Of a stretch of 64,000 nucleotides of DNA, positions 34,829-49,678 are shown piece by piece. Within the stretch, counting starts at the first letter, position 1; every line of letters begins with the position of its first letter. The notes beneath the pieces are model-generated. The model was not told the origin of the DNA. It made no database searches and saw only the letters and a list, made by a program, of their open reading frames with translations. Made by a program: the position numbers and the translations under genes. Source of the stretch: Bacilli bacterium (GTDB taxonomy: Bacteria > Bacillota_I > Bacilli_A > RF39 > UBA660); contig JAFSEX010000005.1 in assembly GCA_017435465.1 (NCBI GenBank), positions 134,793-198,792 on the forward strand. The letters are read 5' to 3'.

Positions 34829-35722
34829 ATGGAAAAATATTTGGAAGATTTTAAAAAATATATTGAATTTCAAAGAGGATATTCAACAAATACCATTATA
34901 AACTATGAAAATGATATAAAAGAATTTTTAGAATTTTTAAATAAAGAAAATATTGATAATATTAAAAATGCAAATTATTCATTAGTAAGGTTTTATTTAA
35001 TGGATTTGTATGATAAAAAATTTTCAAGAAATTCTGTTTCAAGAAAACTTAGTTCATTAAGAAGTTTTTTTAAATATTTGCACAAAGAAAATATAGTTGA
35101 GGCTAATCCTTTCTCATTAGTTTCTTCACCAAAAAAAGAAAAAAAATTACCAAAATTTTTATATAATGATGATATAGAAAAAGTATTTGATGTTCCAAAT
35201 CTTAATTCATCATTAGGTCAAAGAGATATGCTAATCTTAGAAATACTATATGATACAGGAATAAGAGTTAGTGAACTTGTTAATATTAAATTAAAAGATA
35301 TAGATTTTGACAATAAAAGTATACGAATACTTGGAAAAGGAAATAAAGAAAGAATAGTTTTATATGGAAGTTATGCTGAAGACATTTTAAATGAATATAT
35401 GAAAGATGGAAGAAAAAGAATTTTAAAAGAAAAAAATAATGAATATTTAATCTTGAATGCTAAAGGTGAAAATATTACAAGTAGAGGAGTAAGATTGATT
35501 TTAGATAATATAATAAAAAAAGCTTGTTTAAAAGTACATATTTCACCACATACACTAAGACATACTTTTGCAACACATTTACTTGAAAATGGCGCAGATT
35601 TATTAACGGTAAAAGAACTTCTTGGACATTCGTCATTGTCATCAACAGGTATATACACACATGTAACAAATGAAAGGCTTAGAAATGTTTATCTGCATTC
35701 ACATCCAAGGGCTAGAAAATAG
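34829..35722 (+). CDS. xerC: tyrosine recombinase XerC/XerD family
   Basis: SAM-like N-domain, catalytic R..(HTLRHTFATHLL)..GHSSLSSTGIYTHV pattern, 297 aa. Confidence 0.8.
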   Translation: MEKYLEDFKKYIEFQRGYSTNTIINYENDIKEFLEFLNKENIDNIKNANYSLVRFYLMDLYDKKFSRNSVSRKLSSLRSFFKYLHKENIVEANPFSLVSSPKKEKKLPKFLYNDDIEKVFDVPNLNSSLGQRDMLILEILYDTGIRVSELVNIKLKDIDFDNKSIRILGKGNKERIVLYGSYAEDILNEYMKDGRKRILKEKNNEYLILNAKGENITSRGVRLILDNIIKKACLKVHISPHTLRHTFATHLLENGADLLTVKELLGHSSLSSTGIYTHVTNERLRNVYLHSHPRARK

Positions 35723-35760
35723 ATAAGTTTTATGATATATTTATAATAGGAGATGATAAA

Positions 35761-35976
35761 ATGGATAGTTTAAAAAGAAATGGATTAAATGTTAATTCAA
35801 GTCCAATACAACCAAGAAATACTACGCTTGGAGCTGCCAATAATGTATTACGTCCAAACATGCAAAAATTAAAGACTACTCAAGGAATGGTTAAAGACAA
35901 TAGAGAAACAAGAGTTAATAATATTACGAAAGGAATTGGAAGTTTTAATTCGGGGTGGATTAATAAGAATAAATAA
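35761..35976 (+). CDS. small hypothetical protein
   Basis: 71 aa. Good RBS (aggaga) and a 2-nt gap to tdk. Confidence 0.45.
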   Translation: MDSLKRNGLNVNSSPIQPRNTTLGAANNVLRPNMQKLKTTQGMVKDNRETRVNNITKGIGSFNSGWINKNK

Positions 35977-35978
35977 TT

Positions 35979-36554
35979 ATGGCAAAATTATATTTTAAAT
36001 ATGGAGCAATGAATTCTGGAAAAACAACAGTTTTAATTCAAACAGCTTATAATTATGAAAGTCAAGGAATGAAAGTAATAGTTATAAAACCAAGCAAAGA
36101 TATTAAAGGTGAAGAAAAAATTATATCAAGAGTAGGACTTTCAAGAAAAGTAGATTATCTAATTAAAGATGGAGATAATATATATGAATTAATCAATAAT
36201 AAACACAAAGACATAGCTTGTTTGTTAGTTGATGAAGTTCAATTCTTAGAAGAAAAGCAAATAGATGAATTACTAATGATTTCATCCCTTTTAAATATTC
36301 CAGTTATATGTTATGGTCTTAGAACAGATTTTAGAATGGAAGGTTTTAGAGGGAGTCCAAGATTACTTTTAATCGCAGATAAAATAGAAGAAATAAAAAC
36401 TATCTGCAAATGTGGTAAAAAAGCAACCATAAATGTAAGAAAAGTAAATAATGAGTATGTATTTGAAGGAGACCAAATCGCTATTGATGGATTTTGTGAT
36501 GTTAAATACGAAAGCATGTGTCCTACGTGCTCTTATAAAATAAGAAAAATATAA
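35979..36554 (+). CDS. tdk: thymidine kinase
   Basis: GAMNSGKTT P-loop, VDEVQFL, C-terminal zinc ribbon C.CG....C..C. Confidence 0.9.
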   Translation: MAKLYFKYGAMNSGKTTVLIQTAYNYESQGMKVIVIKPSKDIKGEEKIISRVGLSRKVDYLIKDGDNIYELINNKHKDIACLLVDEVQFLEEKQIDELLMISSLLNIPVICYGLRTDFRMEGFRGSPRLLLIADKIEEIKTICKCGKKATINVRKVNNEYVFEGDQIAIDGFCDVKYESMCPTCSYKIRKI

Positions 36555-36652
36555 AAAAGTGTGTTAAAAACTATAAAACTACATAAAAATTCTTGTGTAG
36601 TTTTCTTTATTTTGTTATGATAAATGTGTACATTAAAAGGAGGAATAATGTT

Positions 36653-39289
36653 ATGACAAAATTTGTATACTCTTTTAGAGAGGGTAATGCAGACATGAGA
36701 AACCTTCTTGGTGGAAAAGGTGCTAACTTAGCAGAAATGACTAATTTAGGATTACCAATTCCTCAAGGTTTTACAGTAACAACTGAAGCATGTACTGATT
36801 ACTATAATAATGATAAGAAAATCAGTGAAACAATTGAAACACAAATTTTCGAAGCTATGAAAGAACTTGAAAAAATTCAAGGAAAAACATTTGGAGATAC
36901 TAAAGATCCATTATTAGTATCAGTAAGAAGTGGTGCTAGAGCATCAATGCCTGGTATGATGGATACTATTCTTAACTTAGGATTAAATGATGAAGCAGTT
37001 GAAGGATTTGCTACAAAAACTGGAAATCCAAGATTTGCATATGATTCATATAGAAGATTTATTCAAATGTATTCTGACGTAGTTATGGAAGTTAACAAAA
37101 GTTTCTTTGAAAAAATTATCGATGAATTAAAAGAAGAAAAAGGAATTAAATATGATACAGAAATGACTGTTGAAGATTTAAAAGAATTAGTTAATAAATT
37201 CAAAGATGTTTATTCTGAACACATGAATGGTGCTGAATTCCCACAAGATCCAAAAGAACAATTAATGGGAGCTGTTAAAGCTGTATTTAGATCATGGGAT
37301 AATCCACGTGCAATCGTTTACAGAAGAATGAATGATATTCCAGGAGACTGGGGAACTGCTGTAAACGTTCAAGCAATGGTATTTGGTAATATGGGTGAAA
37401 CTTCAGGAACTGGGGTTGCATTTACAAGAAATCCATCTACTGGTGAAAAAGGTATTTATGGTGAATACTTAATTAATGCTCAAGGTGAAGACGTTGTTGC
37501 TGGTGTTAGAACTCCACAACCAATTTCTAAACTAGAAGAAGATATGCCTGAATGTTATAAAGAATTCATGGAAATCGCAACTAAACTAGAAAATCACTAT
37601 AGAGACATGCAAGATATGGAATTTACTATTCAAGAAGGTAAATTATATTTCTTACAAACAAGAAATGGTAAAAGAACTGCTCCTGCAGCAATTCAAATCG
37701 CATGTGATTTAGTTGATGAAGGAATGATTACTAAAGAAGAAGCAATTTTAAGAATTGAAGCAAAAAGTTTAGATCAATTATTACATCCAACATTTGATGC
37801 AGCTGCATTAAAAGCAGGTGAAGTAATTGGTTCAGCACTTCCAGCATCACCTGGTGCAGCAGCAGGTTATGTAGTATTTACTGCTGAAGATGCAAAAAGA
37901 GAAGGTATCAATGGTAAAGGTGAAAGAGTTATTTTAGTTAGACTTGAAACTACACCAGAAGATATCGAAGGGATGATTGCTGCTCAAGGTATTTTAACTG
38001 TACGTGGTGGTATGACTTCACATGCTGCAGTAGTTGCTCGTGGTATGGGTACTTGCTGTGTATCAGGATGTGGAGAAATCAAAATTAATGAAGAAGAAAA
38101 ATACTTTGAACTTGGTGGATATACTTTCAGGGAAGGTGATTATATCTCATTAGATGGTACAACAGGAAAAATCTATAAAGGAGATATTAAAACTGTTGAA
38201 GCATCAGTATCTGGAAATTTTGGACGTATTATGGCATGGGCTGATGAGATGAGAACACTAAAAGTTAGAACAAATGCTGATAACCCAAGAGATACACGTC
38301 AAGCAGTAGAATTAGGTGCTGAAGGTATTGGACTTTGTAGAACAGAACACATGTTCTTTGACGAAGTTAGAATTCCAAAAATCAGAAAAATGATTTTATC
38401 TGAAACTGTTGAAGCTAGAGAAGCTGCATTAAATGAATTAATTCCATTCCAAAAAGCAGACTTCAAAGCTATGTATAAAGAATTAAAAGGTCTACCAATG
38501 ACTGTTCGTTATTTAGACCCACCTTTACATGAATTCTTACCAACTTTAGAAGAAGATATTATTGCTTTAGCTAATGAAATGGGAGTAAGCGTAGAACAAT
38601 TAAAAAATAAATGTGCAGATTTACATGAATTTAACCCAATGATGGGACATAGAGGATGTCGTTTAGCTGTAACATATCCAGAAATTGCTAAAATGCAAAC
38701 AAGAGCACTTATGGAAGCTGCTATTGAAGTTAAGGAAGAAGATGGATATGACATCACTCCTGAAATTATGATTCCACTTGTTGGAGAAAAGAAAGAGTTA
38801 AAATTTGTTAAAGATGTAGTTATTGAAACAGCTGAAAAAGTAAAAGCAGAAAAAGCATCAGACATTGAATACCATATTGGTACAATGATTGAAATCCCAA
38901 GAGCTGCATTACTTGCAGATGAAATAGCTTCCGAAGCTGAATTCTTCTCATTTGGAACAAATGACTTAACACAAATGACATTTGGATTCTCAAGAGATGA
39001 TGCTGGTAAATTCTTAGATGCTTACTATCAAAGTAAAATCTATGAATCAGATCCGTTTGCAAAATTAGATCAAAATGGTGTTGGACAATTAGTTAAAATG
39101 GCTGTTGAAAAAGGTAAACAAACTCGTCCAAACATTAAACTTGGAATTTGTGGTGAACATGGTGGAGAACCATCTTCAGTTGAATTTTGTCATAATGTAG
39201 GATTATCTTATGTATCATGTAGTCCATTTAGAGTTCCTATTGCAAGATTAGCTGCTGCACAAGCGGCCATAAAGTCGAGCCAAAAATAG
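36653..39289 (+). CDS. ppdK: pyruvate, phosphate dikinase
   Basis: MTKFVYSFREGNADMRNLLGGKGANLAEM.., GGMTSHAAVVARGMG catalytic His, CGEHGG. ATG 36653 follows aaaaggagg; the track start at 36593 is upstream read-through. The last ~9 codons appear to be supplied by the integrated element. Confidence 0.92.
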   Translation: MTKFVYSFREGNADMRNLLGGKGANLAEMTNLGLPIPQGFTVTTEACTDYYNNDKKISETIETQIFEAMKELEKIQGKTFGDTKDPLLVSVRSGARASMPGMMDTILNLGLNDEAVEGFATKTGNPRFAYDSYRRFIQMYSDVVMEVNKSFFEKIIDELKEEKGIKYDTEMTVEDLKELVNKFKDVYSEHMNGAEFPQDPKEQLMGAVKAVFRSWDNPRAIVYRRMNDIPGDWGTAVNVQAMVFGNMGETSGTGVAFTRNPSTGEKGIYGEYLINAQGEDVVAGVRTPQPISKLEEDMPECYKEFMEIATKLENHYRDMQDMEFTIQEGKLYFLQTRNGKRTAPAAIQIACDLVDEGMITKEEAILRIEAKSLDQLLHPTFDAAALKAGEVIGSALPASPGAAAGYVVFTAEDAKREGINGKGERVILVRLETTPEDIEGMIAAQGILTVRGGMTSHAAVVARGMGTCCVSGCGEIKINEEEKYFELGGYTFREGDYISLDGTTGKIYKGDIKTVEASVSGNFGRIMAWADEMRTLKVRTNADNPRDTRQAVELGAEGIGLCRTEHMFFDEVRIPKIRKMILSETVEAREAALNELIPFQKADFKAMYKELKGLPMTVRYLDPPLHEFLPTLEEDIIALANEMGVSVEQLKNKCADLHEFNPMMGHRGCRLAVTYPEIAKMQTRALMEAAIEVKEEDGYDITPEIMIPLVGEKKELKFVKDVVIETAEKVKAEKASDIEYHIGTMIEIPRAALLADEIASEAEFFSFGTNDLTQMTFGFSRDDAGKFLDAYYQSKIYESDPFAKLDQNGVGQLVKMAVEKGKQTRPNIKLGICGEHGGEPSSVEFCHNVGLSYVSCSPFRVPIARLAAAQAAIKSSQK
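39258..39264 (+). repeat. attL core (CACAAGC)
   Basis: The identical 7-mer recurs at 45976-45982 in the same reading-frame context (AQAAIK / SQAAIK). Confidence 0.5.
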
Positions 39290-39323
39290 AACGAGAAGTC
39301 GTTCCAATAAAAATAAATACTTA

Positions 39324-39345
39324 AAGAACCGAAAGGTTCTTTTTT
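39324..39345 (+). terminator. Element-borne terminator serving ppdK
   Basis: aagaacc-gaaa-ggttctt followed by tttt. Confidence 0.65.
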
Positions 39346-39510
39346 GTTGCAATAGAAGGAGAGTGATTAGTATTAAAATATGTTTTACTAAATGAAAGGA
39401 GGGGGGTTGAAAATTTATTATATTATTTATTTTAGACAAAAGTAGTCGCCATAAGGTTTGGACGACTTTTTTATTTGTAAGAAAATGTAAAACGAAAGGA
39501 GAGATAAAAT

Positions 39511-39969
39511 ATGTTTTACAAAAAAGAATTATTAGAGAATATGTCACAAGGGGCAAGATTAAAATTTATAAGGAAGAATAAAGGGATAGAACTTAATGAT
39601 ATAGCTGCATATTTGGGTTATAGCAGTAATAAACCAATTCGTGAATGGGAAAATAATACAAAGAGTCCAGATGCAAGAAATTTGTCTAGGTTAGCAGAAG
39701 CATATGGTGTATGTATTGATGCAATAAAAAAATATGATTTCATTGATCCAATAGATGAAATATATTATCAAATGTGGTATGAAGAACAATACCCATATTA
39801 TCAGTTTCAATTACCAGAAAGATTTGCAGGTTCAGCATATAACTTTAATGTTCAAAATGGAATAAATGAATGGTTAAAGATGAGAGAAAAAAGAGAAAAT
39901 TATGAAATAACAGATCAAGAATATCTTGAATGGAAATTAAACTATAAATTAGAAAGTTTAATAAAATAA
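39511..39969 (+). CDS. XRE-family HTH regulator
   Basis: GARLKFIRKNKGIELNDIAAYLGYS....IREWENN...P....LSRLAEAYGV is an HTH_3-type pattern. RBS aaaggagag. Confidence 0.6.
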   Translation: MFYKKELLENMSQGARLKFIRKNKGIELNDIAAYLGYSSNKPIREWENNTKSPDARNLSRLAEAYGVCIDAIKKYDFIDPIDEIYYQMWYEEQYPYYQFQLPERFAGSAYNFNVQNGINEWLKMREKRENYEITDQEYLEWKLNYKLESLIK

Positions 39970-40009
39970 ATTTAAAAATGTATGATATAATAATTAAACA
40001 GGTGATTAT

Positions 40010-41119
40010 ATGGGAAAGTACTTAGACAATTTAAATGATGAAGTAAGAGAATATTTTAGTATCTTATCACCAACATTTCCAGAATGGTTATTAGAATATA
40101 TAGATACCCCAGAAATGGAAAGAATTGGGAAAATAAGTATGAGTTGTGGAACAGATTACTCTAAATGCTTTAATCTAAGGTATTGGTATTCTAATTTAGA
40201 TCATAGTGTTGGAGTAGCATTAATAATATGGAATTTTACTCATGACAAAAAACAAACTTTAGCTGGATTATTTCATGATATAGCAACTCCAGTATTTAAA
40301 CATTGTATAGATTTTATGAATGGCGATTCAGAAACACAAGAATCTACTGAAGAAAGAACAACTGATATTATTAAAAATTCAAAAGAGATAATGAATTTAT
40401 TAAATAGAGACGGAATAAAATTGGAAGAAGTAGATGACTATCATATATATCCAATTGCTGATAATGATACTCCAAGATTGTCAGCTGATAGATTTGAATA
40501 TACTTTTGCTAGTGGATTAACATTTTTTAGAGTATGGGAATTAGAACAAATAAGAAAGATGTACAATAATATAATAATTGTAAAAAATGAAGATGGCATA
40601 GATGAACTAGCATTTAAGGATAAAGAAGTGTGTGAAGAATATATTTATACTATATCAAGACTTTGGCCTGAATGGGTAAGTGATAAAGATAGGACTGTTA
40701 TGCAATTTTTAGCAGATATGTGTAAATCTATGAGCAATGCTGGATATTTAACAATAGATGATTTATATGCATTATCAGAAGAAGAAATAATTAATAAATT
40801 TTTAAATTGTAATGATGCTTATCTATCTGATAGTTTTAGAAGATTTCAAAATGCTGATACAGTTTATCAAAGTGTTGAATATGTTGATGGAAGATATTGT
40901 GTAAATATTAGAGCAAAAACAAGATATGTTACTCCATTAGTTTTAACTGAAAATGGTCCAGTAAGAATTAATATTATATCTAAAAAAGCAAATGAAGAAA
41001 TAAATAAATATTTATGTTTACCAAAAGGTGGATACTATACATATTTTGATTTTGACTTTAAGCCATATGAAGGTCCAGTAAAAAAACTAGTAAAAACAAA
41101 TGTAACAAATAACCAATAA
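40010..41119 (+). CDS. HD-domain phosphohydrolase, divergent SAMHD1/YwfO (dNTPase-like) type
   Basis: ..TPEMERIGKISMSCGTDY......YSNLDHSVGVALI...(19 aa)..LAGLFHDIATPVFKH parallels F.RL..I.Q.G.......SR.EHSLGV...ALLHD.GHGPFSH. Confidence 0.6.
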   Translation: MGKYLDNLNDEVREYFSILSPTFPEWLLEYIDTPEMERIGKISMSCGTDYSKCFNLRYWYSNLDHSVGVALIIWNFTHDKKQTLAGLFHDIATPVFKHCIDFMNGDSETQESTEERTTDIIKNSKEIMNLLNRDGIKLEEVDDYHIYPIADNDTPRLSADRFEYTFASGLTFFRVWELEQIRKMYNNIIIVKNEDGIDELAFKDKEVCEEYIYTISRLWPEWVSDKDRTVMQFLADMCKSMSNAGYLTIDDLYALSEEEIINKFLNCNDAYLSDSFRRFQNADTVYQSVEYVDGRYCVNIRAKTRYVTPLVLTENGPVRINIISKKANEEINKYLCLPKGGYYTYFDFDFKPYEGPVKKLVKTNVTNNQ

Positions 41120-41261
41120 TTATTTAAAAAAATCTTTCGAATATGAGCATTCAAAGAAGTAGAAACACTTCCTTTTCTTATGCTAAATAAATATGAAAGA
41201 ATAACAAATAGATGCAAAACTGTTAACTATAATAGTAAAAATATGTTATAATAAAAATAGC

Positions 41262-41285
41262 GAATATCTTATGATATTCTTTTTT
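41262..41285 (+). terminator. Terminator-like hairpin just upstream of the KAP NTPase gene
   Basis: gaatatc-ttat-gatattc followed by tttttt. It is preceded by TATAAT boxes at 41228-41233 and 41247-41252. Confidence 0.45.
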
Positions 41286-41313
41286 CTTTTTATATAGGTA
41301 GGAGGTTTTAGTA

Positions 41314-44199
41314 ATGATTTGTAATAAGATAACCAACGACAAAAAAACTAGTGTTGATAAAAATAAAGGAGAATATGAAAATAAATATGAAAGTATGTCT
41401 CCAAAAGATGATATAGAAATAAATCAATATAGCGAGTTGATACATGCTCTAAGTAATGACAAACTTTTAAATATAGGTGTAACTGGACCATATAGTTCCG
41501 GAAAATCATCAGTCATTAAATCTATATTTAAGAAAAAAGAGTTATTAAAAAATACATTATTTGTTTCTTTTGCTGATTTTAAAGGTAAAAAAGTAAAAAG
41601 TAATATAGTTGGTACTAATTATGATGAAAATTCTGTTGATATAAGTGAATTAGAAAAAACAATAATTGATGAAATATGTAATTATTCAGTCATAAAGAAA
41701 TTTAAATCGAAAAAGTACTGGAAGAGATTTTTAATCCTTTTATTAATATTTATTTTGGGCAGTTTAGTGTTTATAAAAAGTATTTGTGAGTTTATATGCA
41801 ATAATACTTTAATATCAGTACCAATTTTTCTGCTATGCATTATAACTTTATTAATTATTTCATATTATATTAATAATTTTAGTTTCAAAATAACATATTC
41901 TAATTTTGAAGTTGATGTTAAAAATAAAGATGAAATATTTGATCATAATATTAATTATCTTATAGAAATATTAAAAACACTTAAAATCAAGTATATAGTT
42001 TTTGAGGATATCGATAGATATCAAGATGTTGAGATATTTGAAAAAATCCATAATATGAATACTTTGATCAATCTTAGTTTAGAATCAAAAGTAAAGTTTA
42101 TATATGTTGTATCTGATAACTTAATAGGAGATGGGTTAAATAGAGTTAAATTTTTTGATTATATTTATCCTATAATACCGTTTGTTTCTTATAGTACATC
42201 TGGTGATAAGGCACTTACTAGATTAAAAACACTTGGTCTTATTGGTAAAAATGGTTTAGATAGAAAATTCATATATAATACATTTTTGTATATAAATGAC
42301 TATAGAATTGTAACTGATATTATTAACGAATATATTGTTTATTTAAATGCGATAGATGAAAGTATAAAAAATTGTAATTATTTTAATTATAATTCTTTAT
42401 TTGCAATAATAAGTTATAAAGTATTATTCCCAGAAGATTTTTCAAAATTGGAAAAGGAATCAGATGATTGTATTTTATTAAGTGCTTTTGATTGCAAATC
42501 ATTTAAAGAAATAAAAGAAAAAGCAACAGAGATAATGAATGAAGAAGATAAAGAAGAAAAACTAAAAACATTATCTGAAGCATTAAAATTATTAGCCTAT
42601 TTTATTACTTCTGGCTATATATTAAGAGAAACGTATAAAATGTATATTAAGAGATATTATTTTGATGAAATGGATATAAATGATTTTAATTTTATTCAAC
42701 AAGCAAATATGAAAAATATTGAAGAAAAAGATATTGATTTTAAGTTAGCAATAACACATCCTGATATTGTTATTGAAAGATTAGATGAGACTTCATATAA
42801 CAATATATCTTCATTGAATTATAACTTGTTATCTGAATTATTAAGCAAGAATACATCAAATTATAAAGAATTACTAAAAAAATATATAGATACCATATTT
42901 AATTTAAAAAACAAATATAAGTTTCTTTATGGCTTTTATGAATTTTCCGGTAAAAAGTTTGATAAGTTATTAAAGCAAATTATTGATGAAGAAAAGGACA
43001 TCATTAATGACTTAATTGACTTGGATGAGTGTAGTTACAAGAACGATTTTATATATCTAATTTTAAATAAATATGGATTACCTGAGTTAAAAATAGCCGA
43101 CATTAATTATGAAAAATTAATAAAAATTATAAGAAATAGTAAAATTGGGATAAAAAATGAAGTAAGTGGTGTTTTTACCACAAATATTGCTGAACTATCT
43201 ACAAAGGGCTTGAAATATGATGATCTTAGAGGAATTAAATCTGATGAATTACTTGAGACCATAGTTGAAAATGATTCATATGAAATTAATAAAGATAATA
43301 TTAATTTAATTTTAAAAAGATACTATGAATATTCAAATAAGAATATAAAAAAACAGCCAATTAAATTAATACTTGATAAAAATAATTCATATATTCTTTC
43401 TGATAAAAATAGAATTGTAGGTATATATTGTGAAAATGTTTCGGATTTATACGTAGATGATCAAGATATTATTAAAACAATATTATCTGATTCTTCAATC
43501 TCAACTATAAGTAAGGAAAATTTTATTCATAGTGAGAAAACTAAAATAGAAGATATTAGTTATATAATTGATGTAGATGTGTTAAATAAAATTATCGAGG
43601 AAGATAGACTTGTATGCAGTTGGGATAATATTTATTATTACTATGCTAAGGCATCTTCAAAAGATATATTATCAAATTATTTATCTTCTAATGCTGGAAA
43701 CAATCTTTCCAATGAAGACATAAATGACAATATTAAACAAGATTTTTCTTTCTTGAAATATGTTATATCAATAGGTAATATTTCAAATGAATTATTTGAT
43801 AAAATATTAAATACATATCCTGATAAATATAATTTGTTAGAAATGTTTTCTACAAAAACTATTGCTATGGATGAATATAAATTAGACAAATTATTAAATA
43901 TACATGATTTTAATCATAAAGAAGAAATCCAACGATTTAAGATTAAAATTATAAATAATAATTTTGATCTCATCAATGAAACTAATGTATCTGATAAATT
44001 GAATAAAATAGGTCATGATTATTCTTGGATGTTAATAAATAACAAAAAGCCTGAAATATCTAACAATATAGAAACAAAGAATCTAATAGAAAATTTAAAT
44101 TCTAAATTAAAATATAATATTGACTATGAAGAAAGTAATGAAAGAATTTTTATCAAAGGTAGAAGAAATAAGAAACAAGTTTATAGTTTAAATAGGTAA
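41314..44199 (+). CDS. KAP/YobI-type P-loop NTPase with TM helices inserted in the NTPase domain
   Basis: Walker A GVTGPYSSGKSS (nt ~41476-41511). Two hydrophobic helices (RFLILLLIFILGSLVFI; VPIFLLCIITLLIISYYI) lie before Walker B KYIVFEDIDRY. Long C-terminal region. Strong RBS taggagg. Confidence 0.7.
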   Translation: MICNKITNDKKTSVDKNKGEYENKYESMSPKDDIEINQYSELIHALSNDKLLNIGVTGPYSSGKSSVIKSIFKKKELLKNTLFVSFADFKGKKVKSNIVGTNYDENSVDISELEKTIIDEICNYSVIKKFKSKKYWKRFLILLLIFILGSLVFIKSICEFICNNTLISVPIFLLCIITLLIISYYINNFSFKITYSNFEVDVKNKDEIFDHNINYLIEILKTLKIKYIVFEDIDRYQDVEIFEKIHNMNTLINLSLESKVKFIYVVSDNLIGDGLNRVKFFDYIYPIIPFVSYSTSGDKALTRLKTLGLIGKNGLDRKFIYNTFLYINDYRIVTDIINEYIVYLNAIDESIKNCNYFNYNSLFAIISYKVLFPEDFSKLEKESDDCILLSAFDCKSFKEIKEKATEIMNEEDKEEKLKTLSEALKLLAYFITSGYILRETYKMYIKRYYFDEMDINDFNFIQQANMKNIEEKDIDFKLAITHPDIVIERLDETSYNNISSLNYNLLSELLSKNTSNYKELLKKYIDTIFNLKNKYKFLYGFYEFSGKKFDKLLKQIIDEEKDIINDLIDLDECSYKNDFIYLILNKYGLPELKIADINYEKLIKIIRNSKIGIKNEVSGVFTTNIAELSTKGLKYDDLRGIKSDELLETIVENDSYEINKDNINLILKRYYEYSNKNIKKQPIKLILDKNNSYILSDKNRIVGIYCENVSDLYVDDQDIIKTILSDSSISTISKENFIHSEKTKIEDISYIIDVDVLNKIIEEDRLVCSWDNIYYYYAKASSKDILSNYLSSNAGNNLSNEDINDNIKQDFSFLKYVISIGNISNELFDKILNTYPDKYNLLEMFSTKTIAMDEYKLDKLLNIHDFNHKEEIQRFKIKIINNNFDLINETNVSDKLNKIGHDYSWMLINNKKPEISNNIETKNLIENLNSKLKYNIDYEESNERIFIKGRRNKKQVYSLNR

Positions 44200-44216
44200 A
44201 TGTCAAATGCGCGATG

Positions 44217-44240
44217 AAAGAAGTAAAAATACTTCTTTTT
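44217..44240 (+). terminator. Terminator after the KAP NTPase gene
   Basis: aaagaagta-aaaa-tacttcttt followed by tt. Confidence 0.6.
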
Positions 44241-44309
44241 ATTATGTGCAAAATCGCACCCTAAACTTATTTATATAAAAGTGATAATTTCTTTGTAGAG
44301 GTGAGAAAA

Positions 44310-45908
44310 ATGAAAAGAAAGGTAGCAATTTATGCTAGAGTTTCAACTGAACATGAAGCTCAATTATCTGCTTTAGATAATCAAGTTCAATACTATGATG
44401 AAATTTTAAAGAAGAATCCTGATTGGATTCTTTATGATAGATACATAGATGAAGGAATAACAGGAACATCTACAAAGAAAAGAAAAAACTTTATGAGAAT
44501 GATAGAGGATGCAAAAGCAGGAAGATTTGATTTAATAGTTACTCGTGAGGTATCAAGATTTGCAAGAAATACAGTTGATACATTACAAGAAACTAGAAAG
44601 TTAAAAAATATTGGAGTAGAAGTATATTTTATTGAAGATAATATATGGACATTTAATGATGAGGATGGGGAATTAAAACTTACTATTATGGCTACACTTG
44701 CTCAAAATGAAAGTAAGAAAACATCTCAAAGAGTTAAAGCAGGACAAATGATATCATTTCAAAATGGTGTGTTCTATGGAACAGGAAATATACTTGGTTA
44801 TAACAAAGTGGGAAAGGATTTGGTAGTCAATGAAGAACAAGCTGAGATAGTAAAATTCATTTATTCTGAATATTTAAGTGGTAAAGGGACAGTTAAAATA
44901 GCAGATGAATTAACAAAAATGGAAGCACAAACATCAATGGGATTAACTAATTGGAGTGCTTCTTATGTGTCTAGAGTATTAAGGAATCCATTCTATTGTG
45001 GAACTATAGTTTATCGAAAATCATACATACCAGATTACTTGGAACAAAAACCTAAAATGAATTATGGAGAAGTTGAACAAGTAATAGTTGAAGGAAAACA
45101 TGAACCACTAGTGTCAAAAGAAGATTTTAAAAAGGTTCAACAAATAATGGATAGTCATTCTAAACCAATTAAAGTAGGAAGAAGACAAGCTACAGGAGTA
45201 CCTAGAAATATATGGAGTAAAAAATTAGTATGTGAATGTGGTTCTAATTTTAATAGAAAGATTTATCACAAAAATAAAAAAGATACTACATATTGTTATG
45301 TATGTTATAACAAGAAAAACAGACCTAAGAGTAGATTTAAAGAAGCCTGCGGTATGAAAGAAGTTCAAGAATGGAAATTACAATATATGGCTGAATATAT
45401 TTTTAGAAATCTTACTCAAAATCCTGATAATAGAAAACAATTATTTGAACGATTAATGAAAGGAGTAGATATAGATGCACATCCTGAGATAAAGATAAGA
45501 CAAAGAATTGATAAATTAAATCAATTAATAGAAAAAGAAAATGAAAAGTTTGATAGACTTATAGATACATATTTAGATAAAACAATAGATATAAATTTAT
45601 ATGATATGTTTCAAAAAAAGTTATCAAGTAGAATAGAAAAATATAAAATAGAAATAATAGAATTAGAAAAGAAATGTGAATCAATTGAACCATTAGAAGT
45701 TAGAATTGAGAATGCAAAAAAGAGTATTAGAAGATTACTTGATATCAACTATAATGGTGTTGATGATAAAATAATAGAAGAATTTGTAGAAAAGATTATA
45801 GTTCATAAAGATTACTTTGAATGGAAATTAAACTTTATGAATGATACAATAAAATTAGAAATAAGCGGAAAAAGCAAAAAAGATGGATTTTTAATAGAAC
45901 GCGAATAA
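44310..45908 (+). CDS. large serine recombinase
   Basis: VAIYARVSTEHEAQLSALDNQ (catalytic Ser), resolvase domain, recombinase domain, Cys-rich zinc ribbon (CECG...C.VC) and coiled-coil tail. ATG 44310 follows agaggtga. Confidence 0.9.
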   Translation: MKRKVAIYARVSTEHEAQLSALDNQVQYYDEILKKNPDWILYDRYIDEGITGTSTKKRKNFMRMIEDAKAGRFDLIVTREVSRFARNTVDTLQETRKLKNIGVEVYFIEDNIWTFNDEDGELKLTIMATLAQNESKKTSQRVKAGQMISFQNGVFYGTGNILGYNKVGKDLVVNEEQAEIVKFIYSEYLSGKGTVKIADELTKMEAQTSMGLTNWSASYVSRVLRNPFYCGTIVYRKSYIPDYLEQKPKMNYGEVEQVIVEGKHEPLVSKEDFKKVQQIMDSHSKPIKVGRRQATGVPRNIWSKKLVCECGSNFNRKIYHKNKKDTTYCYVCYNKKNRPKSRFKEACGMKEVQEWKLQYMAEYIFRNLTQNPDNRKQLFERLMKGVDIDAHPEIKIRQRIDKLNQLIEKENEKFDRLIDTYLDKTIDINLYDMFQKKLSSRIEKYKIEIIELEKKCESIEPLEVRIENAKKSIRRLLDINYNGVDDKIIEEFVEKIIVHKDYFEWKLNFMNDTIKLEISGKSKKDGFLIERE

Positions 45909-45974
45909 TAATAAGTCATTTTAGTCTCAATGGAGCGTGTAGGGGCTCCAAATCGGTTTCCTTTGGTTTATGGT

Positions 45975-46004
45975 TCACAAGCTGCTATTAAAGCTGGAAA
46001 ATAA
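45975..46004 (+). pseudogene. Displaced native 3' end of ppdK
   Basis: tca caa gct gct att aaa gct gga aaa taa = SQAAIKAGK*, compared with the present ppdK end AQAAIKSSQK*. Confidence 0.55.
45976..45982 (+). repeat. attR core (CACAAGC)
   Basis: Same 7-mer as 39258-39264. The flanks differ to the left and are similar to the right. Confidence 0.5.
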
Positions 46005-46015
46005 TTAATAAATTA

Positions 46016-46045
46016 AGACTAAGATTTAAAAATCTTGGTCTTTTT
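46016..46045 (+). terminator. Probable native ppdK terminator
   Basis: agactaagat/atcttggtct 10-bp stem followed by ttttt. Confidence 0.6.
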
Positions 46046-46107
46046 ATATAAATTGACAAAACGATAACACACATTAAAAAAAATTACATAAACTAACTAT
46101 AGGTGAT

Positions 46108-47031
46108 TTGATGAATTGTGATTATAATTTTGGTAATCAGTGTTATAACTACTATGGTGATACTGGTATAAAGAGTTTAAAATATGAAATACTTGCTCCA
46201 GAGCAAGAACAAATTAAACAACCTGGAATGGAATATTTAATGACTCCAAAACCTATATTTGATAATCCTAATTATATAGGTAGTGGTAAATTAAAAAATA
46301 AAGTTGCAATCATAACAGGTGCAGATAGTGGTCTTGGTAGAGCGGCAGCTGTTGCTTTTGTAAAAGAGGGTGCAAAAGTAGTAATTCCTTATTACGATGA
46401 ACATAGAGATGCTATGGAAACAAAAGAATATATAGAAATGCTTGGTGGGGAATGTGAATTGCTGTCAGGAGACATTAGTGATAAAAACTTTTGTAAACAT
46501 ATTGTGGATTTTACACTTCAAAGATTTGGTAAAATAGATATACTTGTTAATAATGCAGGAGTACAATATCAACAAGATACTTTAGAATGTATATCAGATG
46601 AACAATTTGATAGAACTATGAAAGTAAATATATATGGTATGTTTTATTTAACGAAAGAAGTTTTGCCACATTTAAAAAGTGGTTCTTCTATAATAAATTT
46701 ATCTTCAGTAACAACTTTCTATGGGGAGCCACAATTAATAGATTATGTTACAACAAAAGGTGCGATAATAGGATTTACTAGATCACTTGCTAGAAATCTT
46801 GCTTTAAAAAATATAAGAGTAAATGCTATTGCGCCTGGTTTCTTTTGGACACCACTTCAACCTGCTTGTTGGGTAAAAGAAAAAATACCATCTCTAGGCA
46901 GTGATGCAGCTATGGCAAGAGGTGCTATGCCATATGAATTAGCTCCTACATTTGTATTTTTAGCTAGTGATGATTCTAGTTATGTAACGGGTCAAGTAAT
47001 ACACAATAATGGTGGGCAAGTAATGGGATAA
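46108..47031 (+). CDS. short-chain dehydrogenase/reductase (YhdF/YdaD general-stress type)
   Basis: KVAIITGADSGLGRA (TGxxxGxG), NNAG, S...Y...K pattern, and the long N-terminal extension typical of this subgroup. Alternative ATG at 46111. Confidence 0.85.
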   Translation: MMNCDYNFGNQCYNYYGDTGIKSLKYEILAPEQEQIKQPGMEYLMTPKPIFDNPNYIGSGKLKNKVAIITGADSGLGRAAAVAFVKEGAKVVIPYYDEHRDAMETKEYIEMLGGECELLSGDISDKNFCKHIVDFTLQRFGKIDILVNNAGVQYQQDTLECISDEQFDRTMKVNIYGMFYLTKEVLPHLKSGSSIINLSSVTTFYGEPQLIDYVTTKGAIIGFTRSLARNLALKNIRVNAIAPGFFWTPLQPACWVKEKIPSLGSDAAMARGAMPYELAPTFVFLASDDSSYVTGQVIHNNGGQVMG

Positions 47032-47262
47032 AATATAAATTAATACTAGGAGAATCTAACTTTTTTGAAGAAAAAATATTGTAATAAACATTTTCTTTAT
47101 GTATAATTATCTTGTATTAAATAGTTTGCCTGATATTTATATGACAATTTAATCGATAAGGGATAATTCTAAAGGCAAAATAGAAATATTCATGATGCGG
47201 AAGATACTTATTTTAAGATAAGTGTCTTCTTTTTTTGTTATTTTAAAAGGAGGAAAAACATT

Positions 47263-48144
47263 ATGAATGAAATAATAGAAAAAGAAAACATAATAATTGA
47301 AGATATGATTTATGAAGTTAGAGAAATGCAAGTTATGTTAGATTCTGATATAGCAAAACTATATCAAGTTGAAACTAAAAGAATAAATGAAGCTGTAAAA
47401 AATAATCTGGATAAATTTCCAGAAAGATATAGTTGGTTATTAACAAGAGAAGAAACAAAAAAATTAAGGTCGAAAATTTCGACCTTAGAAATAAAAGGAC
47501 AAGGAAAATATAGTAAATATGTTCCAAGAGTATTTACAGAACAAGGTTTATATATGTTAGCTACAATATTAAAATCTAAAGTGGCAACAGAAGTTACAAT
47601 TTCAATTATGGATACTTTTGTAAAAATGAGACATTATATAAATTATAATAAGAAATTTTTACCACATAAATTTATGCTGCTAGAGAAGCAAGTAGATGAT
47701 AATACCAAAAGAATAAATGAACTATTTGATAAATTTGATCCTAAAGTTATAGTCAAAGATTATATATTTTTTGAAGGAGAATTTTATGATGCATACTCAT
47801 TATTGTTAGATATTTTTAACAATACTAAAGAAGAAACTATAATAATAGATAATTATGCTTCTAAGGATTTGTTAGATATATTAAAGAAAATAGATAAGAA
47901 AATAATAATAGTATCTAAAAATATAGATGAAATATTAAAGAAGAAATATGAAAGTCAATATAATAATATAACATTTATAAATAATAATTCATTTCATGAT
48001 AGATTTATCATAATAGATAAACAAAAATTATATTCATGTGGTGCTTCATTTAAAGATTTGGGTAAAAAATGTTTTGCAATCCACGAATTTAATGAAAAAG
48101 AATATTTAAACAAACTATTAAATATATTAAATTTGCAATTTTAA
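47263..48144 (+). CDS. ORF6N-domain DNA-binding protein with a C-terminal HDRF...GAS domain
   Basis: IYEVREMQVMLDSDIAKLYQVETKRINEAVKNN..FPE...LT.EE...LRS is the ORF6N/KilA-N-like pattern. The C-terminus has IIIDNY....FHDRFIIID...LYSCGASFKDLGKK. Confidence 0.65.
   Translation: MNEIIEKENIIIEDMIYEVREMQVMLDSDIAKLYQVETKRINEAVKNNLDKFPERYSWLLTREETKKLRSKISTLEIKGQGKYSKYVPRVFTEQGLYMLATILKSKVATEVTISIMDTFVKMRHYINYNKKFLPHKFMLLEKQVDDNTKRINELFDKFDPKVIVKDYIFFEGEFYDAYSLLLDIFNNTKEETIIIDNYASKDLLDILKKIDKKIIIVSKNIDEILKKKYESQYNNITFINNNSFHDRFIIIDKQKLYSCGASFKDLGKKCFAIHEFNEKEYLNKLLNILNLQF
47466..47486. repeat. Perfect 21-nt palindrome inside the ORF6N gene
   Basis: aaggtcgaaa-a-tttcgacctt, encoding LRSKISTL. Confidence 0.8.
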
Positions 48145-48162
48145 AAAGCAGTTAAAAATAAG

Positions 48163-48450
48163 ATGAATAAAATAATAGAAAAAGAAAATATAACAATTGA
48201 AGATATGATTTATGAAGTTAGTGGTGTACAAGTAATACTTTCTTCTGATGTAGCTAAATTATATCAAGTTGAAACTAAAGTATTAAATCAGGTTATTAAT
48301 AGAAATATAAATAGATTTTCAGAAAGATTTTGTTTTCAATTAAATAATACTGAAATTGATAATTTATCTTTAAGGTCACAATTTGTGACCTTAAACAAAA
48401 ATAATAATAAGATTAAGATTTTAAAAATTTTATATTTTTTTAATTTTTAA
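48163..48450 (+). CDS. truncated ORF6N-domain paralog
   Basis: The first ~60 nt are nearly identical to 47263-. Homology ends at the palindrome and is followed by a low-complexity tail NKNNNKIKILKILYFFNF*. Confidence 0.5.
   Translation: MNKIIEKENITIEDMIYEVSGVQVILSSDVAKLYQVETKVLNQVINRNINRFSERFCFQLNNTEIDNLSLRSQFVTLNKNNNKIKILKILYFFNF
48372..48392. repeat. Perfect 21-nt palindrome inside the truncated paralog
   Basis: aaggtcacaa-t-ttgtgacctt, encoding LRSQFVTL. It differs from the first palindrome by two compensated pairs. Confidence 0.8.
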
Positions 48451-48514
48451 TGATTAGTAACTAAAAATAAAAAAGTATGCTATAATATTTTTAATACTTA
48501 AAAGAGGTGGTTTT

Positions 48515-49108
48515 GTGGAAAAAGAAAAATTATATAATATTTTACTAAGTGATAATGTTGTAACTACTATTAATGATAATTTAGATTTTATTTTGACTTT
48601 AATTCCTGAATTAAAAGCTTTAATAGGATTTGAACATAATCATCCACATCACCATCTTGATGTTTGGAATCACACTTTGTTAACACTAAATCTCTCTCCA
48701 AGCAATTTTGAAATAAGATTGGTGTTATTATTACACGATATTGGGAAACCTAATTCCTACCAAGATGAAGAAGTAAGGCATTTCAGAGAACATACTAAAA
48801 TATCATCTAATATGTCATTTAATATTTTAAAGAGATTAAATTTTAATGAGGATGAAATATTTAAATTATGTTATTTAATAGAACAACACGATACTCTGAT
48901 AACAGATGAAGAAATAGATAATAATAAGAAATTAGCAACAATAAAATTTAAAATCCAATGTTGTGATGCATTAGCTCATAATCCTACAAAATTAGAAAAA
49001 AGAATAAAATATTTACTAGATATCAACGAAAAAATAAATACAGGAAAAGAAAAAGATAAATGTAAAAAACTAATATCTAAAATTTCTAAAGAAATTACAG
49101 AGGAATAG
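48515..49108 (+). CDS. stand-alone HD-domain protein (CCA-enzyme-type HD)
   Basis: HNHPHHHLDVWNHTLLTL ... RLVLLLHDIGKP resembles the HD phosphohydrolase domain fused to some CCA-adding enzymes. Confidence 0.6.
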   Translation: MEKEKLYNILLSDNVVTTINDNLDFILTLIPELKALIGFEHNHPHHHLDVWNHTLLTLNLSPSNFEIRLVLLLHDIGKPNSYQDEEVRHFREHTKISSNMSFNILKRLNFNEDEIFKLCYLIEQHDTLITDEEIDNNKKLATIKFKIQCCDALAHNPTKLEKRIKYLLDINEKINTGKEKDKCKKLISKISKEITEE

Positions 49109-49109
49109 T

Positions 49110-49571: not shown

Positions 49572-49678
49572 GGATAAATATGGAAATAGAAAGTATTAGT
49601 TTTTTTGAATTTTATAAATACTTTATTTGCAACTTCCCCAATATATTGTATAATTATTTTAGAATGTGAGGCTAAAAT

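What the first reader, a model, noticed from the sequence alone, without database searches (positions are those of the whole stretch)
39258..45982. 6.7-kb serine-recombinase island integrated into the 3' end of ppdK
ppdK now ends ..gca CAC AAG Cgg cca taa agt cga gcc aaa aat ag, read in frame as gca caa gcg gcc ata aag tcg agc caa aaa tag = AQAAIKSSQK*.

About 6.7 kb downstream, just past the recombinase gene, the sequence tCACAAGCtgctattaaagctggaaaataa encodes SQAAIKAGK*. A strong terminator follows at 46016-45.

Sequences to the left of the two CACAAGC cores are unrelated. Sequences to the right are similar. This is the pattern expected when an element inserts into a gene's 3' end and supplies a surrogate tail and terminator (39324-45).

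The only mobility gene is a large serine recombinase at the right end. The cargo is an XRE regulator, an HD protein and a KAP NTPase.
Basis: partly seen in the sequence, partly recalled or inferred. Interest (0 to 1): 0.75.

Follow-up and report, generated by a model that had tools for sequence, protein, structure and literature searches.

The report
Serine-recombinase defence cassette in ppdK tail
A 6.7-kb mobile DNA cassette, moved by a large serine recombinase and carrying a probable anti-phage gene, sits inside the last codons of the pyruvate phosphate dikinase gene and supplies a replacement gene end; it belongs to a widespread, apparently undescribed family in uncultured gut bacteria that works much like the staphylococcal SCC cassettes.

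Summary

**In the window**
- ppdK (36653-39289) ends AAQAAIKSSQK*.
- 6,718 bp downstream, 67 bp past a large serine recombinase (LSR) gene, lies an orphan ...SQAAIKAGK* plus a terminator.
- Both copies share the core CACAAGC.

**Comparative evidence**
- In the closest relative (PpdK 92%), ppdK runs straight into a terminator homologous to 46015-46042, with no island.
- 36 metagenome loci from hosts whose PpdK is only 58-86% identical show the same layout: ppdK, XRE gene, variable cargo, LSR, orphan tail.
- A sister island is 99.7% identical over 5.1 kb in four hosts whose ppdK DNA is about 71% identical. Identity switches exactly at CAAGC, and all four carry the same SSQK* tail.

**Conclusions**
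- The tail and first terminator belong to the island.
- XRE and LSR are the family's only core genes; the XRE gene is not cargo.
- Cargo is otherwise interchangeable and mostly defence genes. Here it is a YobI/Tmn-type transmembrane NTPase and a weak HD protein.
- Tandem arrays and recombinase-less cassettes occur.

The closest analogue is SCC/SCCmec, but the LSR is not a Ccr. This is a new member of a known kind, of moderate interest.

The parts
36653..39289 (+). ppdK (pyruvate phosphate dikinase, 878 aa). The last 8 codons plus stop (from 39265) are island-derived.
   Evidence: Pfam PPDK_N, PEP-utilizers and PEP-utilizers_C. The gene call in the source contig matches these coordinates.
39258..39264 (+). 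attL core CACAAGC. The crossover lies within CAAGC, 39260-39264.
   Evidence: The host/island identity switch falls at CAAGC in four hosts of the sister island.
39265..39289 (+). P' arm, first part: the island-supplied surrogate ppdK tail (...AIKSSQK*) and stop codon.
   Evidence: The identical tail and DNA are attached to ppdK genes only 66-71% identical to this one in L124, L171, L172, L174 and L176.
39289..39304 (+). P' arm hairpin GAACGA-gaag-TCGTTC. It is present at the same offset (+36.5) in nearly all family members, with a varying sequence.
39323..39348 (+). Island-supplied intrinsic terminator for ppdK, followed by the conserved GTTGCAAT.
   Evidence: Conserved at this position in 32 islands.
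39444..39473 (+). Second terminator-like hairpin, with a conserved loop, just upstream of the XRE gene. It is part of the roughly 250-nt conserved left-end leader.
   Evidence: Alignment of 32 left ends.
39511..39969 (+). XRE-family HTH protein (152 aa); a core gene of the island family and always the first island gene.
   Evidence: Pfam HTH_19 and HTH_3. Homologues at 39-83% identity sit directly after ppdK in 36 loci. 135 database homologues.
40010..41119 (+). Cargo: 369-aa protein with a weak HD-domain signature.
   Evidence: PF01966 at E = 0.0057, below threshold. More than 6,600 homologues. An 88% homologue is the third gene of a SMODS operon on Tn4451-like elements.
41314..44199 (+). Cargo: YobI/Tmn-family transmembrane P-loop NTPase (961 aa), a probable single-gene anti-phage defence.
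   Evidence: PF20693 at 1.1e-57. PADLOC Tmn at 1.5e-29. Walker A at residue 58 and a hydrophobic block at 135-189. A 73% homologue is cargo of another island, L110.
44310..45908 (+). Large serine recombinase (532 aa from the ATG at 44310; an alternative GTG lies at 44301).
   Evidence: Pfam Resolvase 7e-29, Recombinase 1e-24, and weak Zn_ribbon_recom 1.1e-3. PHROG 95 integrase 5.9e-121. Its 90% cluster has 218 members.
45913..45926 (+). AAGTCATTTTAGTC, a nearly invariant motif at the outer end of the P arm.
45931..45950 (+). P arm hairpin TGGAGC-gtgtaggg-GCTCCA, which covaries across the family.
   Evidence: 86.5% of cells are paired, against 30-47% with slid partners. 6 of 8 pairs show compensatory changes, and G-U pairs are used.
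45976..45982 (+). attR core CACAAGC.
45978..46004 (+). Orphan native ppdK tail (QAAIKAGK*), the B' arm.
   Evidence: Aligns with the ppdK ends of L002 and L031.
46015..46047 (+). Native ppdK terminator.
   Evidence: 29 of 31 nt identical to the terminator directly after ppdK in L002.

Best explanation
The interval 39265-45982 is a 6.7-kb integrative cassette. Its large serine recombinase inserted it by site-specific recombination between an element site (attP = P arm, CAAGC, P' arm) and a chromosomal site (attB) lying in the last codons of ppdK.

**How it works**
- The crossover falls inside CAAGC, which spans the Gln codon and the start of the next Ala codon of the conserved ...RLAAAQAA... 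motif.
- The P' arm re-encodes AAIK plus a few residues, a stop codon and an intrinsic terminator, so ppdK stays intact and terminated.
- The displaced native tail and terminator are left as an orphan 67 bp past the recombinase gene.

**Family and cargo**
- The cassette is one member of a large family with a fixed frame: a left-end leader plus XRE gene, and an LSR plus P arm at the right.
- Within that frame the cargo is exchangeable and mostly anti-phage. Here it is a Tmn-like transmembrane NTPase plus an HD-like protein.

**Shown**
- The junction anatomy.
- Homology of the orphan tail and terminator to a relative's intact ppdK end.
- The same target site across many hosts.
- A near-identical sister island in divergent hosts.

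**Inferred**
- That the LSR catalyses the reaction, probably in both directions as TnpX/TndX/Ccr-type LSRs do.
- That XRE regulates it.
- That this particular copy can still excise.
- That the cargo defends against phage.
For: 1. **Junctions.** The shared core has unrelated left arms and tail-encoding right arms, and the pattern is far from chance.
2. **Empty site in relatives.** In L002 (PpdK 92% identical) and L057 the order is TK, ppdK, terminator, ORF6N leader, with no island genes. The L002 terminator matches window 46015-46045 at 29 of 31 nt.
3. **Same target, many hosts.** A metagenome scan with the LSR returned 79 loci. In 36 of them ppdK (58-86% identical to the window's), an XRE homologue and the LSR lie in this order, and orphan QAAIK...* tails follow wherever the contig reaches far enough.
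4. **The tail travels with the island.**
   - L124, L171, L172, L174 and L176 carry an island whose LSR is 94-95% identical to this one, with a left end 88% identical.
   - Among four of these hosts the island DNA is 99.7% identical over 3.5-5.1 kb, while their ppdK DNA is about 71% identical.
   - Identity switches exactly at CAAGC, and all carry AAIKSSQK* plus the same terminator.
5. **Intact recombinase.** It is full length relative to 38 family members, with conserved catalytic-domain residues.
6. **Modular cargo.** There are 161 protein clusters in the arrays, and only LSR and XRE recur widely. PADLOC and Pfam find type I, II and IIG restriction-modification, mad2/mad3, RT-protease, PDC candidates and others.
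7. **The window's NTPase** matches YobI-ATPase and PADLOC Tmn and has a transmembrane block after Walker A. Tmn is an experimentally characterised YobI-family defence (PMC13001434).
Against: - No empty site from the same species could be examined. The window's PpdK is the only member of its 90% cluster, and the downstream SDR protein occurs only on the source contigs.
- No excised circle or attP junction of this island type was found in viral contigs or in the fetched loci. No reads were available.
- Within the window alone, the tail similarity beyond the 7-bp core is only 8 of 16 nt.
- No recombination directionality factor and no transfer functions (mob, oriT, packaging) are recognisable, so movement between cells is unexplained.
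- The nearest relative's tail (LKDNK*) differs from the orphan tail (IKAGK*), so the exact predicted native protein end is unconfirmed.
Confidence: 0.9

Rival explanations
1. The island did integrate by LSR recombination but is now a fixed, immobile remnant. This copy no longer excises, and the region behaves as ordinary chromosome.
For: - No circle or attP evidence.
- Many family members are visibly decayed. The LSR is frameshifted or truncated in L031/L144, L110, L125/L126, L130, L148 and L172. L033 is a 1.4-kb remnant with a truncated XRE gene.
- L015 and L016 have XRE plus cargo with no LSR and no orphan tail.
Against: - In the window, the LSR ORF, both cores, the P-arm motif and the hairpin are all intact.
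- The sister type, with 94-95% LSR identity, has clearly moved recently between hosts.
Confidence: 0.25
2. The ppdK-downstream region is a passive variable hot spot. Genes are swapped by homologous recombination between conserved flanks, and the LSR is incidental cargo, not the agent.
For: - Cargo differs between otherwise identical frames: L118 versus L121, and the window versus L124.
- This shows that homologous exchange inside the frame does occur.
Against: - The host/island boundary is a single fixed pentanucleotide in hosts with about 71% identical flanks. That is too divergent for homologous recombination and is the signature of site-specific recombination.
- Every element carries its own copy of the tail.
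- LSR clades down to 42-56% identity all sit beside ppdK-type tails.
Confidence: 0.04
3. It is a degraded prophage or a phage satellite (PICI/PLE-like) that uses a serine integrase.
For: - The LSR's best PHROG match is the phage integrase family, phrog_95 at 5.9e-121, and the XRE resembles phage repressors.
- PLE satellites use LSRs (PMC9638900, listed).
Against: - There are no structural, replication, packaging or lysis genes among the four island genes.
- IMG/VR holds only 30-34% identical LSR relatives.
- The cargo across 22 arrays is defence and miscellaneous genes, not phage modules.
Confidence: 0.05
4. The 7-bp repeat is a transposon target-site duplication or a chance repeat, and the tail resemblance is coincidental.
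For: A 7-bp direct repeat flanking an element is what a DDE transposon would leave. Similarity beyond the core is modest within the window.
Against: - No transposase and no terminal inverted repeats are present.
- The extended pattern is expected 0.02 times in the window.
- Identical junction geometry occurs in dozens of independent loci.
Confidence: 0.01

Closest known systems
SCC / SCCmec cassettes of staphylococci (CcrAB or CcrC large serine recombinases; integration into the 3' end of rlmH/orfX), including tandem defence-carrying SCC-like cassettes (PMC11470126)
   Same: - A chromosomal cassette moved by an LSR.
- It inserts in the last codons of a conserved housekeeping gene without destroying it.
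- Tandem composite arrays with repeated att-like sites occur (L092/L118, L124, L126, L179).
- Recombinase-less cassettes sit beside recombinase-bearing ones (the second element of L124/L171).
- Cargo is enriched in anti-phage systems.
- No self-transfer genes.
- CcrB is the best NCBIfam match for the LSR.
   Different: - The LSR is not a Ccr orthologue: 143.7 bits against a cutoff of 900.
- A single recombinase, not a CcrA/B pair.
- The target is ppdK, not rlmH.
- An XRE gene and a roughly 250-nt leader are conserved at the left end.
- The elements are small, about 5-9 kb.
- The hosts are uncultured low-GC gut Bacillota.
Clostridial LSR transposons Tn4451/Tn5397 (TnpX, TndX)
   Same: - A single LSR is expected to carry out both excision and insertion without a separate directionality factor (established knowledge).
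- The closest solved catalytic domain is a 'putative conjugative transposon recombinase', 3g13, at 2.5e-38.
- The HD-like cargo family also rides on such elements.
   Different: Those elements carry mob or conjugation functions and use loosely defined targets. This island has no Mob or relaxase gene and a strictly conserved target.
Serine-integrase prophages and developmentally excised elements (A118 in comK, SPbeta in spsM, skin in sigK)
   Same: LSR-mediated insertion inside a protein-coding gene with a short common core.
   Different: Those elements split and inactivate the target gene until excision, and they need a directionality factor. Here the element restores the gene end, and no phage genes are present.
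tRNA/tmRNA-targeting genomic islands with tyrosine integrases
   Same: The strategy is the same: target a sequence conserved across species, and carry a replacement 3' end so the target stays functional. The orphan 3' fragment marks the far junction.
   Different: The recombinase class differs (serine, not tyrosine), and the target is a protein-coding tail, not an RNA gene.
Tmn defence system (YobI-family transmembrane NTPase; PMC13001434)
   Same: The cargo protein has the YobI-ATPase domain, a transmembrane insert after Walker A, a long C-terminal region, and a PADLOC Tmn match.
   Different: The PADLOC match covers only residues 222-535, corresponding to model positions 272-571 of 1273. No function was tested, and the host is a Gram-positive-type gut bacterium.

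Membership tests
Large serine recombinase (serine integrase) integrative element | N-terminal resolvase-type catalytic domain followed by the 'recombinase' domain | tested here: met
   PF00239 at 7e-29 (residues 5-148) and PF07508 at 1e-24 (residues 175-281). The YARVST motif is conserved in 38 aligned family members.
Large serine recombinase (serine integrase) integrative element | C-terminal zinc-ribbon domain with an embedded coiled coil | tested here: inconclusive
   PF13408 Zn_ribbon_recom scores 19.7 bits, E = 1.1e-3, below the gathering score of 25.3, at residues 303-358. CxC...CxxC is visible in the sequence. The coiled coil was not tested.
Large serine recombinase (serine integrase) integrative element | attL and attR share only a short core, with unrelated outer arms | tested here: met
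   The core is CACAAGC. The left arms match at 7 of 20 bases, which is background.
Large serine recombinase (serine integrase) integrative element | Unoccupied attB in related genomes | tested here: met
   In L002 and L057, ppdK is followed directly by the terminator and the ORF6N leader. These are related species only; the same species is not available.
Large serine recombinase (serine integrase) integrative element | The same element at the same site in unrelated hosts | tested here: met
   The sister island is 99.7% identical in four hosts with about 71% identical ppdK DNA, and the boundary is at CAAGC. 36 loci show ppdK, XRE, LSR in order.
Large serine recombinase (serine integrase) integrative element | Excised circular form / attP junction | not testable with these tools
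   No reads were available. A pattern for P-core-P' found nothing in IMG/VR or in the fetched loci. P-core-P' junctions of other island types do exist in arrays or short contigs (L101, L102, L119, L137), but those could be tandem copies.
SCC elements (Ccr recombinases) | ccrAB or ccrC orthologue | tested here: not met
   NCBIfam scores: CcrB 143.7 bits (cutoff 900), CcrC 118.7 (cutoff 900), CcrA 70.2 (cutoff 700).
SCC elements (Ccr recombinases) | Integration at the 3' end of rlmH (orfX) | tested here: not met
   The target is ppdK.
Tmn (YobI-family transmembrane NTPase) defence | YobI-type P-loop NTPase domain | tested here: met
   PF20693 at 1.1e-57, residues 41-383 over model positions 4-359 of 363. 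Walker A GPYSSGKS is at residue 58.
Tmn (YobI-family transmembrane NTPase) defence | Transmembrane segment(s) | tested here: met
   A hydrophobic block at residues 135-189 has a Kyte-Doolittle peak of 2.74, enough for two helices. This is hydropathy only, not a topology predictor.
Tmn (YobI-family transmembrane NTPase) defence | Match to the curated defence-system model | tested here: inconclusive
   PADLOC Tmn PDLC02220 at 1.5e-29, but covering only part of the model.
Tmn (YobI-family transmembrane NTPase) defence | Protection against phage | not testable with these tools
   Requires experiment.
Prophage / phage satellite | Structural, packaging, replication or interference genes | tested here: not met
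   PHROGs matched only regulators (XRE) and the integrase (LSR); the other two proteins had no match.
Mobilisable LSR transposon (Tn4451-like) | mob/relaxase gene and oriT | tested here: not met
   No Mob_Pre or Relaxase domain in any island protein. oriT was not searched for.

The most novel reading that the evidence does not exclude
The ppdK 3' end of a broad clade of uncultured gut Bacillota could be a serial-capture platform, analogous to but evolutionarily independent of staphylococcal SCC.

- Each incoming cassette's P' arm mimics the native B' half-site, because it must encode AAIK. Integration would therefore regenerate an attB-like site, allowing unlimited tandem stacking.
- That stacking would include recombinase-less cassettes mobilised in trans.
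- The conserved XRE protein, together with the covarying hairpins placed almost symmetrically about 37 bp either side of the crossover, would act as a DNA- or RNA-level switch. This switch would set recombination direction or couple excision to phage attack.
- Such an accessory layer is not known for large serine recombinases.
Probability: 0.25. Interest if true: 0.65.

Novelty: new member of a known kind. Interest (0 to 1): 0.45.

Why it matters
1. It shows that the SCC-style way of spreading genes exists outside staphylococci. That style is a serine-recombinase cassette slipped into the tail of an essential gene, stacking in tandem and carrying immune systems. Here it is found in abundant but uncultured gut bacteria, with an unrelated recombinase lineage and a different target.
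2. The ppdK tail is a ready anchor for mining new defence genes in these organisms. Across 22 arrays, 161 cargo clusters were seen, and most have no defence annotation.
3. The family offers dozens of natural LSR/attP/attB triplets aimed at one protein-constrained site, which is useful raw material for recombinase specificity studies and genome-engineering tools.
4. For annotation, the last codons and terminator of ppdK in such genomes are foreign DNA, and the XRE-to-LSR block should be flagged as mobile.

Tried and rejected
- **Same-species empty site.** An exact look-up of the downstream SDR protein found only the source contigs. The window's PpdK is a singleton cluster. No test was possible.
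- **attP or circle.** A P-core-P' pattern found nothing in IMG/VR or in the 163 loci held at that point.
- **Phage origin.** IMG/VR holds only 30-34% identical LSRs, and PHROGs gave nothing beyond a regulator and an integrase. Rejected.
- **Known RNA family** in the island or flanks. Rfam gave no hit at E <= 0.1 over 35000-50000.
- **HD-like protein.** No Pfam hit at default thresholds. No PDB sequence match, no NCBIfam hit and no PADLOC hit. Only a sub-threshold HD hit remains.
- **XRE structure.** The AlphaFold model, built on 28 sequences, had mean pLDDT 62.5, too poor for a fold search, so none was run.
- **XRE/LSR shared C-terminal motif.** BLASTP E = 0.015 over 13 residues. Too weak to build on.
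- **Hairpins at about ±37 bp as protein operators.** G-U pairs in the covarying P-arm stem favour an RNA hairpin. P and P' stems match within some island types but not others, such as L110 and L162. Left open.
- **Dyad symmetry of attP to fix the central dinucleotide.** This was inspected by eye, not computed. TTTATGG...CCATAAA has an 11-nt spacer, so it does not single out a dinucleotide. Only 'within CAAGC' can be stated.
- **Transposon target-site duplication.** Rejected (see rival explanations).
- **Literature.** No paper in the held library links ppdK with serine-recombinase integration.

Full report
**1. The observation**

ppdK runs from 36653 to 39289. It ends gca CAA GCG GCC ATA AAG TCG AGC CAA AAA TAG, which reads AQAAIKSSQK*.

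The same heptamer CACAAGC that lies at 39258-39264 recurs at 45976-45982. There the frame reads tca CAA GCT GCT ATT AAA GCT GGA AAA TAA, which is SQAAIKAGK*.

Terminator-like hairpins follow both tails, at 39323-39342 and at 46015-46042.

The degenerate pattern CACAAGCNGCNATNAAR, allowing one mismatch, occurs exactly twice in the window, against 0.02 expected.

Left of the cores the two sequences match at background level, 7 of 20. Core plus the next 16 nt match at 15 of 23, which random window 23-mer pairs reach with frequency 0.0017.

**2. What lies between the cores**

All four genes are co-directional with ppdK.

| Gene | Coordinates | Size | Evidence |
|---|---|---|---|
| XRE-family HTH protein | 39511-39969 | 152 aa | Pfam HTH_19/HTH_3 |
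| HD-like protein | 40010-41119 | 369 aa | only signature is a sub-threshold HD match, E = 0.0057 |
| YobI/Tmn-type NTPase | 41314-44199 | 961 aa | YobI-ATPase 1.1e-57; PADLOC Tmn 1.5e-29; Walker A at residue 58; hydrophobic block at 135-189 |
| Large serine recombinase | 44310-45908 | 532 aa | Resolvase + Recombinase domains; weak Zn-ribbon; PHROG integrase 5.9e-121 |

The recombinase stop codon lies 67 bp before the second core. There is no transposase, relaxase or phage structural gene.

**3. The orphan tail is the native ppdK end**

A scan of one genome per species with PpdK returned 80 loci. All of them keep ...RVPIARLAAAQA..., followed by a short variable tail.

In the closest relative, L002 (PpdK 92% identical), and in L057, the gene order is thymidine kinase, ppdK, terminator, a conserved leader, ORF6N gene. 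No island gene is present.

The L002 ppdK end and terminator align with window 45976-46045. The terminator is 29 of 31 nt identical.

The SDR gene at 46108-47031 is extra relative to L002, but it lies outside the element.

**4. The island tail travels with the island**

A metagenome scan with the recombinase returned 79 loci.

- In 36 of them, ppdK (58-86% identical to the window's, so many different hosts), an XRE homologue (39-83%) and the LSR lie in that order.
- Orphan QAAIK...* tails follow wherever the contig extends far enough.

L124 carries an island with 94-95% LSR identity and an 88% identical left end, but different cargo.

An exact look-up of that island's XRE protein found it beside ppdK in at least four different genomic backgrounds. 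Across those four hosts:
- the island DNA is 99.7% identical over 3.5-5.1 kb;
- ppdK DNA is about 71% identical;
- the switch occurs exactly at CAAGC;
- all carry AAIKSSQK* and the same hairpin and terminator as the window.

This shows that the last eight codons, the stop and the first terminator of the window's ppdK are element DNA.

**5. Crossover position**

The base before CAAGC differs between attL (host-specific t or a) and attR (a) in L124-type islands. The base after it differs between P' (g) and B' (t) in the window. The exchange must therefore lie inside CAAGC. The central dinucleotide cannot be resolved further.

**6. Family architecture**

Clustering 361 ORFs from the arrays gave 161 clusters. 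Only the LSR (67 members) and XRE (39 members) recur widely. 96% of ORFs are on the ppdK strand.

Many relatives carry additional cargo between the LSR and the P arm. In the window there is none.

Tandem arrays are common:
- L092/L118 have three elements.
- L124/L171 have two, the second lacking both LSR and XRE but ending in a P arm 83% identical to the window's.
- L126 has six tails in 10 kb.
- L179 also has a tandem second cassette.

Decay is also common. Frameshifted LSRs and remnants such as L033 were seen.

More distant LSRs (42-56% identical) also sit immediately left of ppdK-type tails. These include QAAIKNPRK*, the native tail of Clostridia hosts.

**7. Cargo**

Sixty-one representative cargo proteins were scanned.
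- PADLOC found type I, II and IIG restriction-modification components, mad2/mad3, RT-protease and several PDC candidates.
- Pfam found Eco47II, MvaI/BcnI, ResIII, AAA_15, radical SAM, HSP90-like ATPase, NUDIX and DUF4379.

The window's NTPase has a 73% homologue as cargo of L110, without the HD-like gene. The NTPase is therefore probably a stand-alone system, like Tmn (PMC13001434).

The HD-like protein belongs to a very large family of more than 6,600 hits. An 88% homologue closes a SMODS operon on Tn4451-like elements.

**8. Conserved non-coding frame**

*Left end.* The roughly 250 nt from the core to the XRE start keep the same order in 32 islands:
1. tail and stop codon;
2. a hairpin centred at +36.5;
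3. a terminator followed by GTTG.AAT;
4. a variable stretch;
5. a second terminator-like hairpin with a conserved loop;
6. the ribosome-binding site.

*P arm.* It begins with the nearly invariant AAGTCATTTTAGTC, followed by a hairpin centred at -37.5.
- That hairpin is paired in 86.5% of cells, against 30-47% for slid controls.
- 6 of 8 pairs show compensatory changes, and G-U pairs are used.
- This favours a plus-strand RNA hairpin, though a DNA-level role is not excluded.

**9. Mechanism**

Shown:
- the junction geometry;
- homology of the orphan end to a real ppdK end;
- fixed target and boundary in many hosts;
- recent spread of a sister island;
- an intact LSR.

Inferred from established knowledge of serine integrases and of TnpX/TndX/Ccr recombinases:
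- the LSR synapses attP with the ppdK site, exchanges strands at a dinucleotide within CAAGC, and can probably reverse the reaction;
- XRE is the element's regulator;
- the target was selected because ...PIARLAAAQAA... is protein-constrained and therefore conserved across hosts;
- the NTPase provides abortive-type phage defence.

Unknown: how the element moves between cells.

**10. Comparison with known systems**

The closest analogue is SCC/SCCmec with its tandem defence-bearing cassettes (PMC11470126). However, the LSR fails the Ccr family cut-offs by a wide margin, and the target differs.

No paper in the held library links ppdK to serine-recombinase integration.

The element is therefore a new member, and the founder of a family, of a known kind of element.

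**11. Limits**

- No same-species empty site was available.
- No attP or circle evidence was found.
- The XRE model is unusable, with pLDDT 62.5.
- Defence function is untested.

**12. Verdict**

Interest is moderate at 0.45: the principle is well known, but the family, its breadth and its SCC-like behaviour in uncultured gut bacteria appear undescribed.

Noticed in passing
window 46108-47031: A short-chain dehydrogenase gene sits between the native ppdK terminator and the ORF6N leader. It is absent at the equivalent place in L002 and L057. No flanking repeat or mobility gene was seen, so this is an independent gain here or a loss there.
   Followed up: partly
window 47108-47232 (also L002 12717-12842, L057 12656-12781, L123 17906-18025): A conserved leader of about 125 nt ends in a terminator hairpin, upstream of the ORF6N-domain gene 47263-48144. 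That gene matches the PADLOC candidate PDC-S05 at 5e-89. There is no Rfam match, and four sequences are too few to assess covariation. It could be an attenuator or an unknown cis-regulatory RNA.
   Followed up: partly
window 39914-39946 and 45805-45837 (also 45355-45387): A 33-nt direct repeat, 85% identical, encodes a shared EY(L/F)EWKLN(Y/F) motif at the C-termini of the XRE protein and the recombinase. The XRE part is conserved in its family. BLASTP gives E = 0.015, so significance is unclear.
   Followed up: partly
window 45913-45926: AAGTCATTTTAGTC is nearly invariant at the outer end of the P arm in 26 distinct islands whose recombinases differ by up to about 35%. It occurs as an exact match once in the window. 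Its function is unknown.
   Followed up: partly
window 39289-39304 and 45931-45950: Hairpins lie almost symmetrically, at +36.5 and -37.5, from the C of CAAGC in nearly all family members. The P-arm stem covaries and uses G-U pairs. Whether they act as terminators or RNA stabilisers, or as accessory recombination sites, is unresolved.
   Followed up: partly
window 41143-41182 and 44207-44246: The terminators after the HD-like gene and after the NTPase gene are 80% identical over 40 nt. They may mark cargo-module boundaries.
   Followed up: no
L164 6409-9107 (also L165, L166): An 88% homologue of the window's HD-like protein is the third gene of a three-gene operon (SMODS nucleotidyltransferase, a 258-aa protein, then the HD-like protein). 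The operon is carried on Tn4451-like elements with LSR, TnpV and Mob genes. This looks like a candidate CBASS-like system.
   Followed up: no
L071 10866-11260: In a higher-GC Clostridia genome, a 380-bp insertion with no evident gene duplicates the ppdK tail (AAQAALNNK* then TTQAALNNK*). The same site therefore seems to be used, or scarred, well outside the low-GC clade.
   Followed up: no
L015 12909-21935 and L016 5866-9787: An XRE homologue directly follows ppdK, then unrelated cargo runs up to a shared NUDIX gene. Neither a recombinase nor an orphan tail is detectable. These are probably decayed islands whose right ends were deleted.
   Followed up: partly
L021, L025-L027, L048, L072, L019, L062, L067, L068 (just after the ppdK stop): A conserved ORF start (...RIIITKDD...) follows ppdK within about 20-30 nt in many other lineages. 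This is a different, apparently native downstream neighbour.
   Followed up: no
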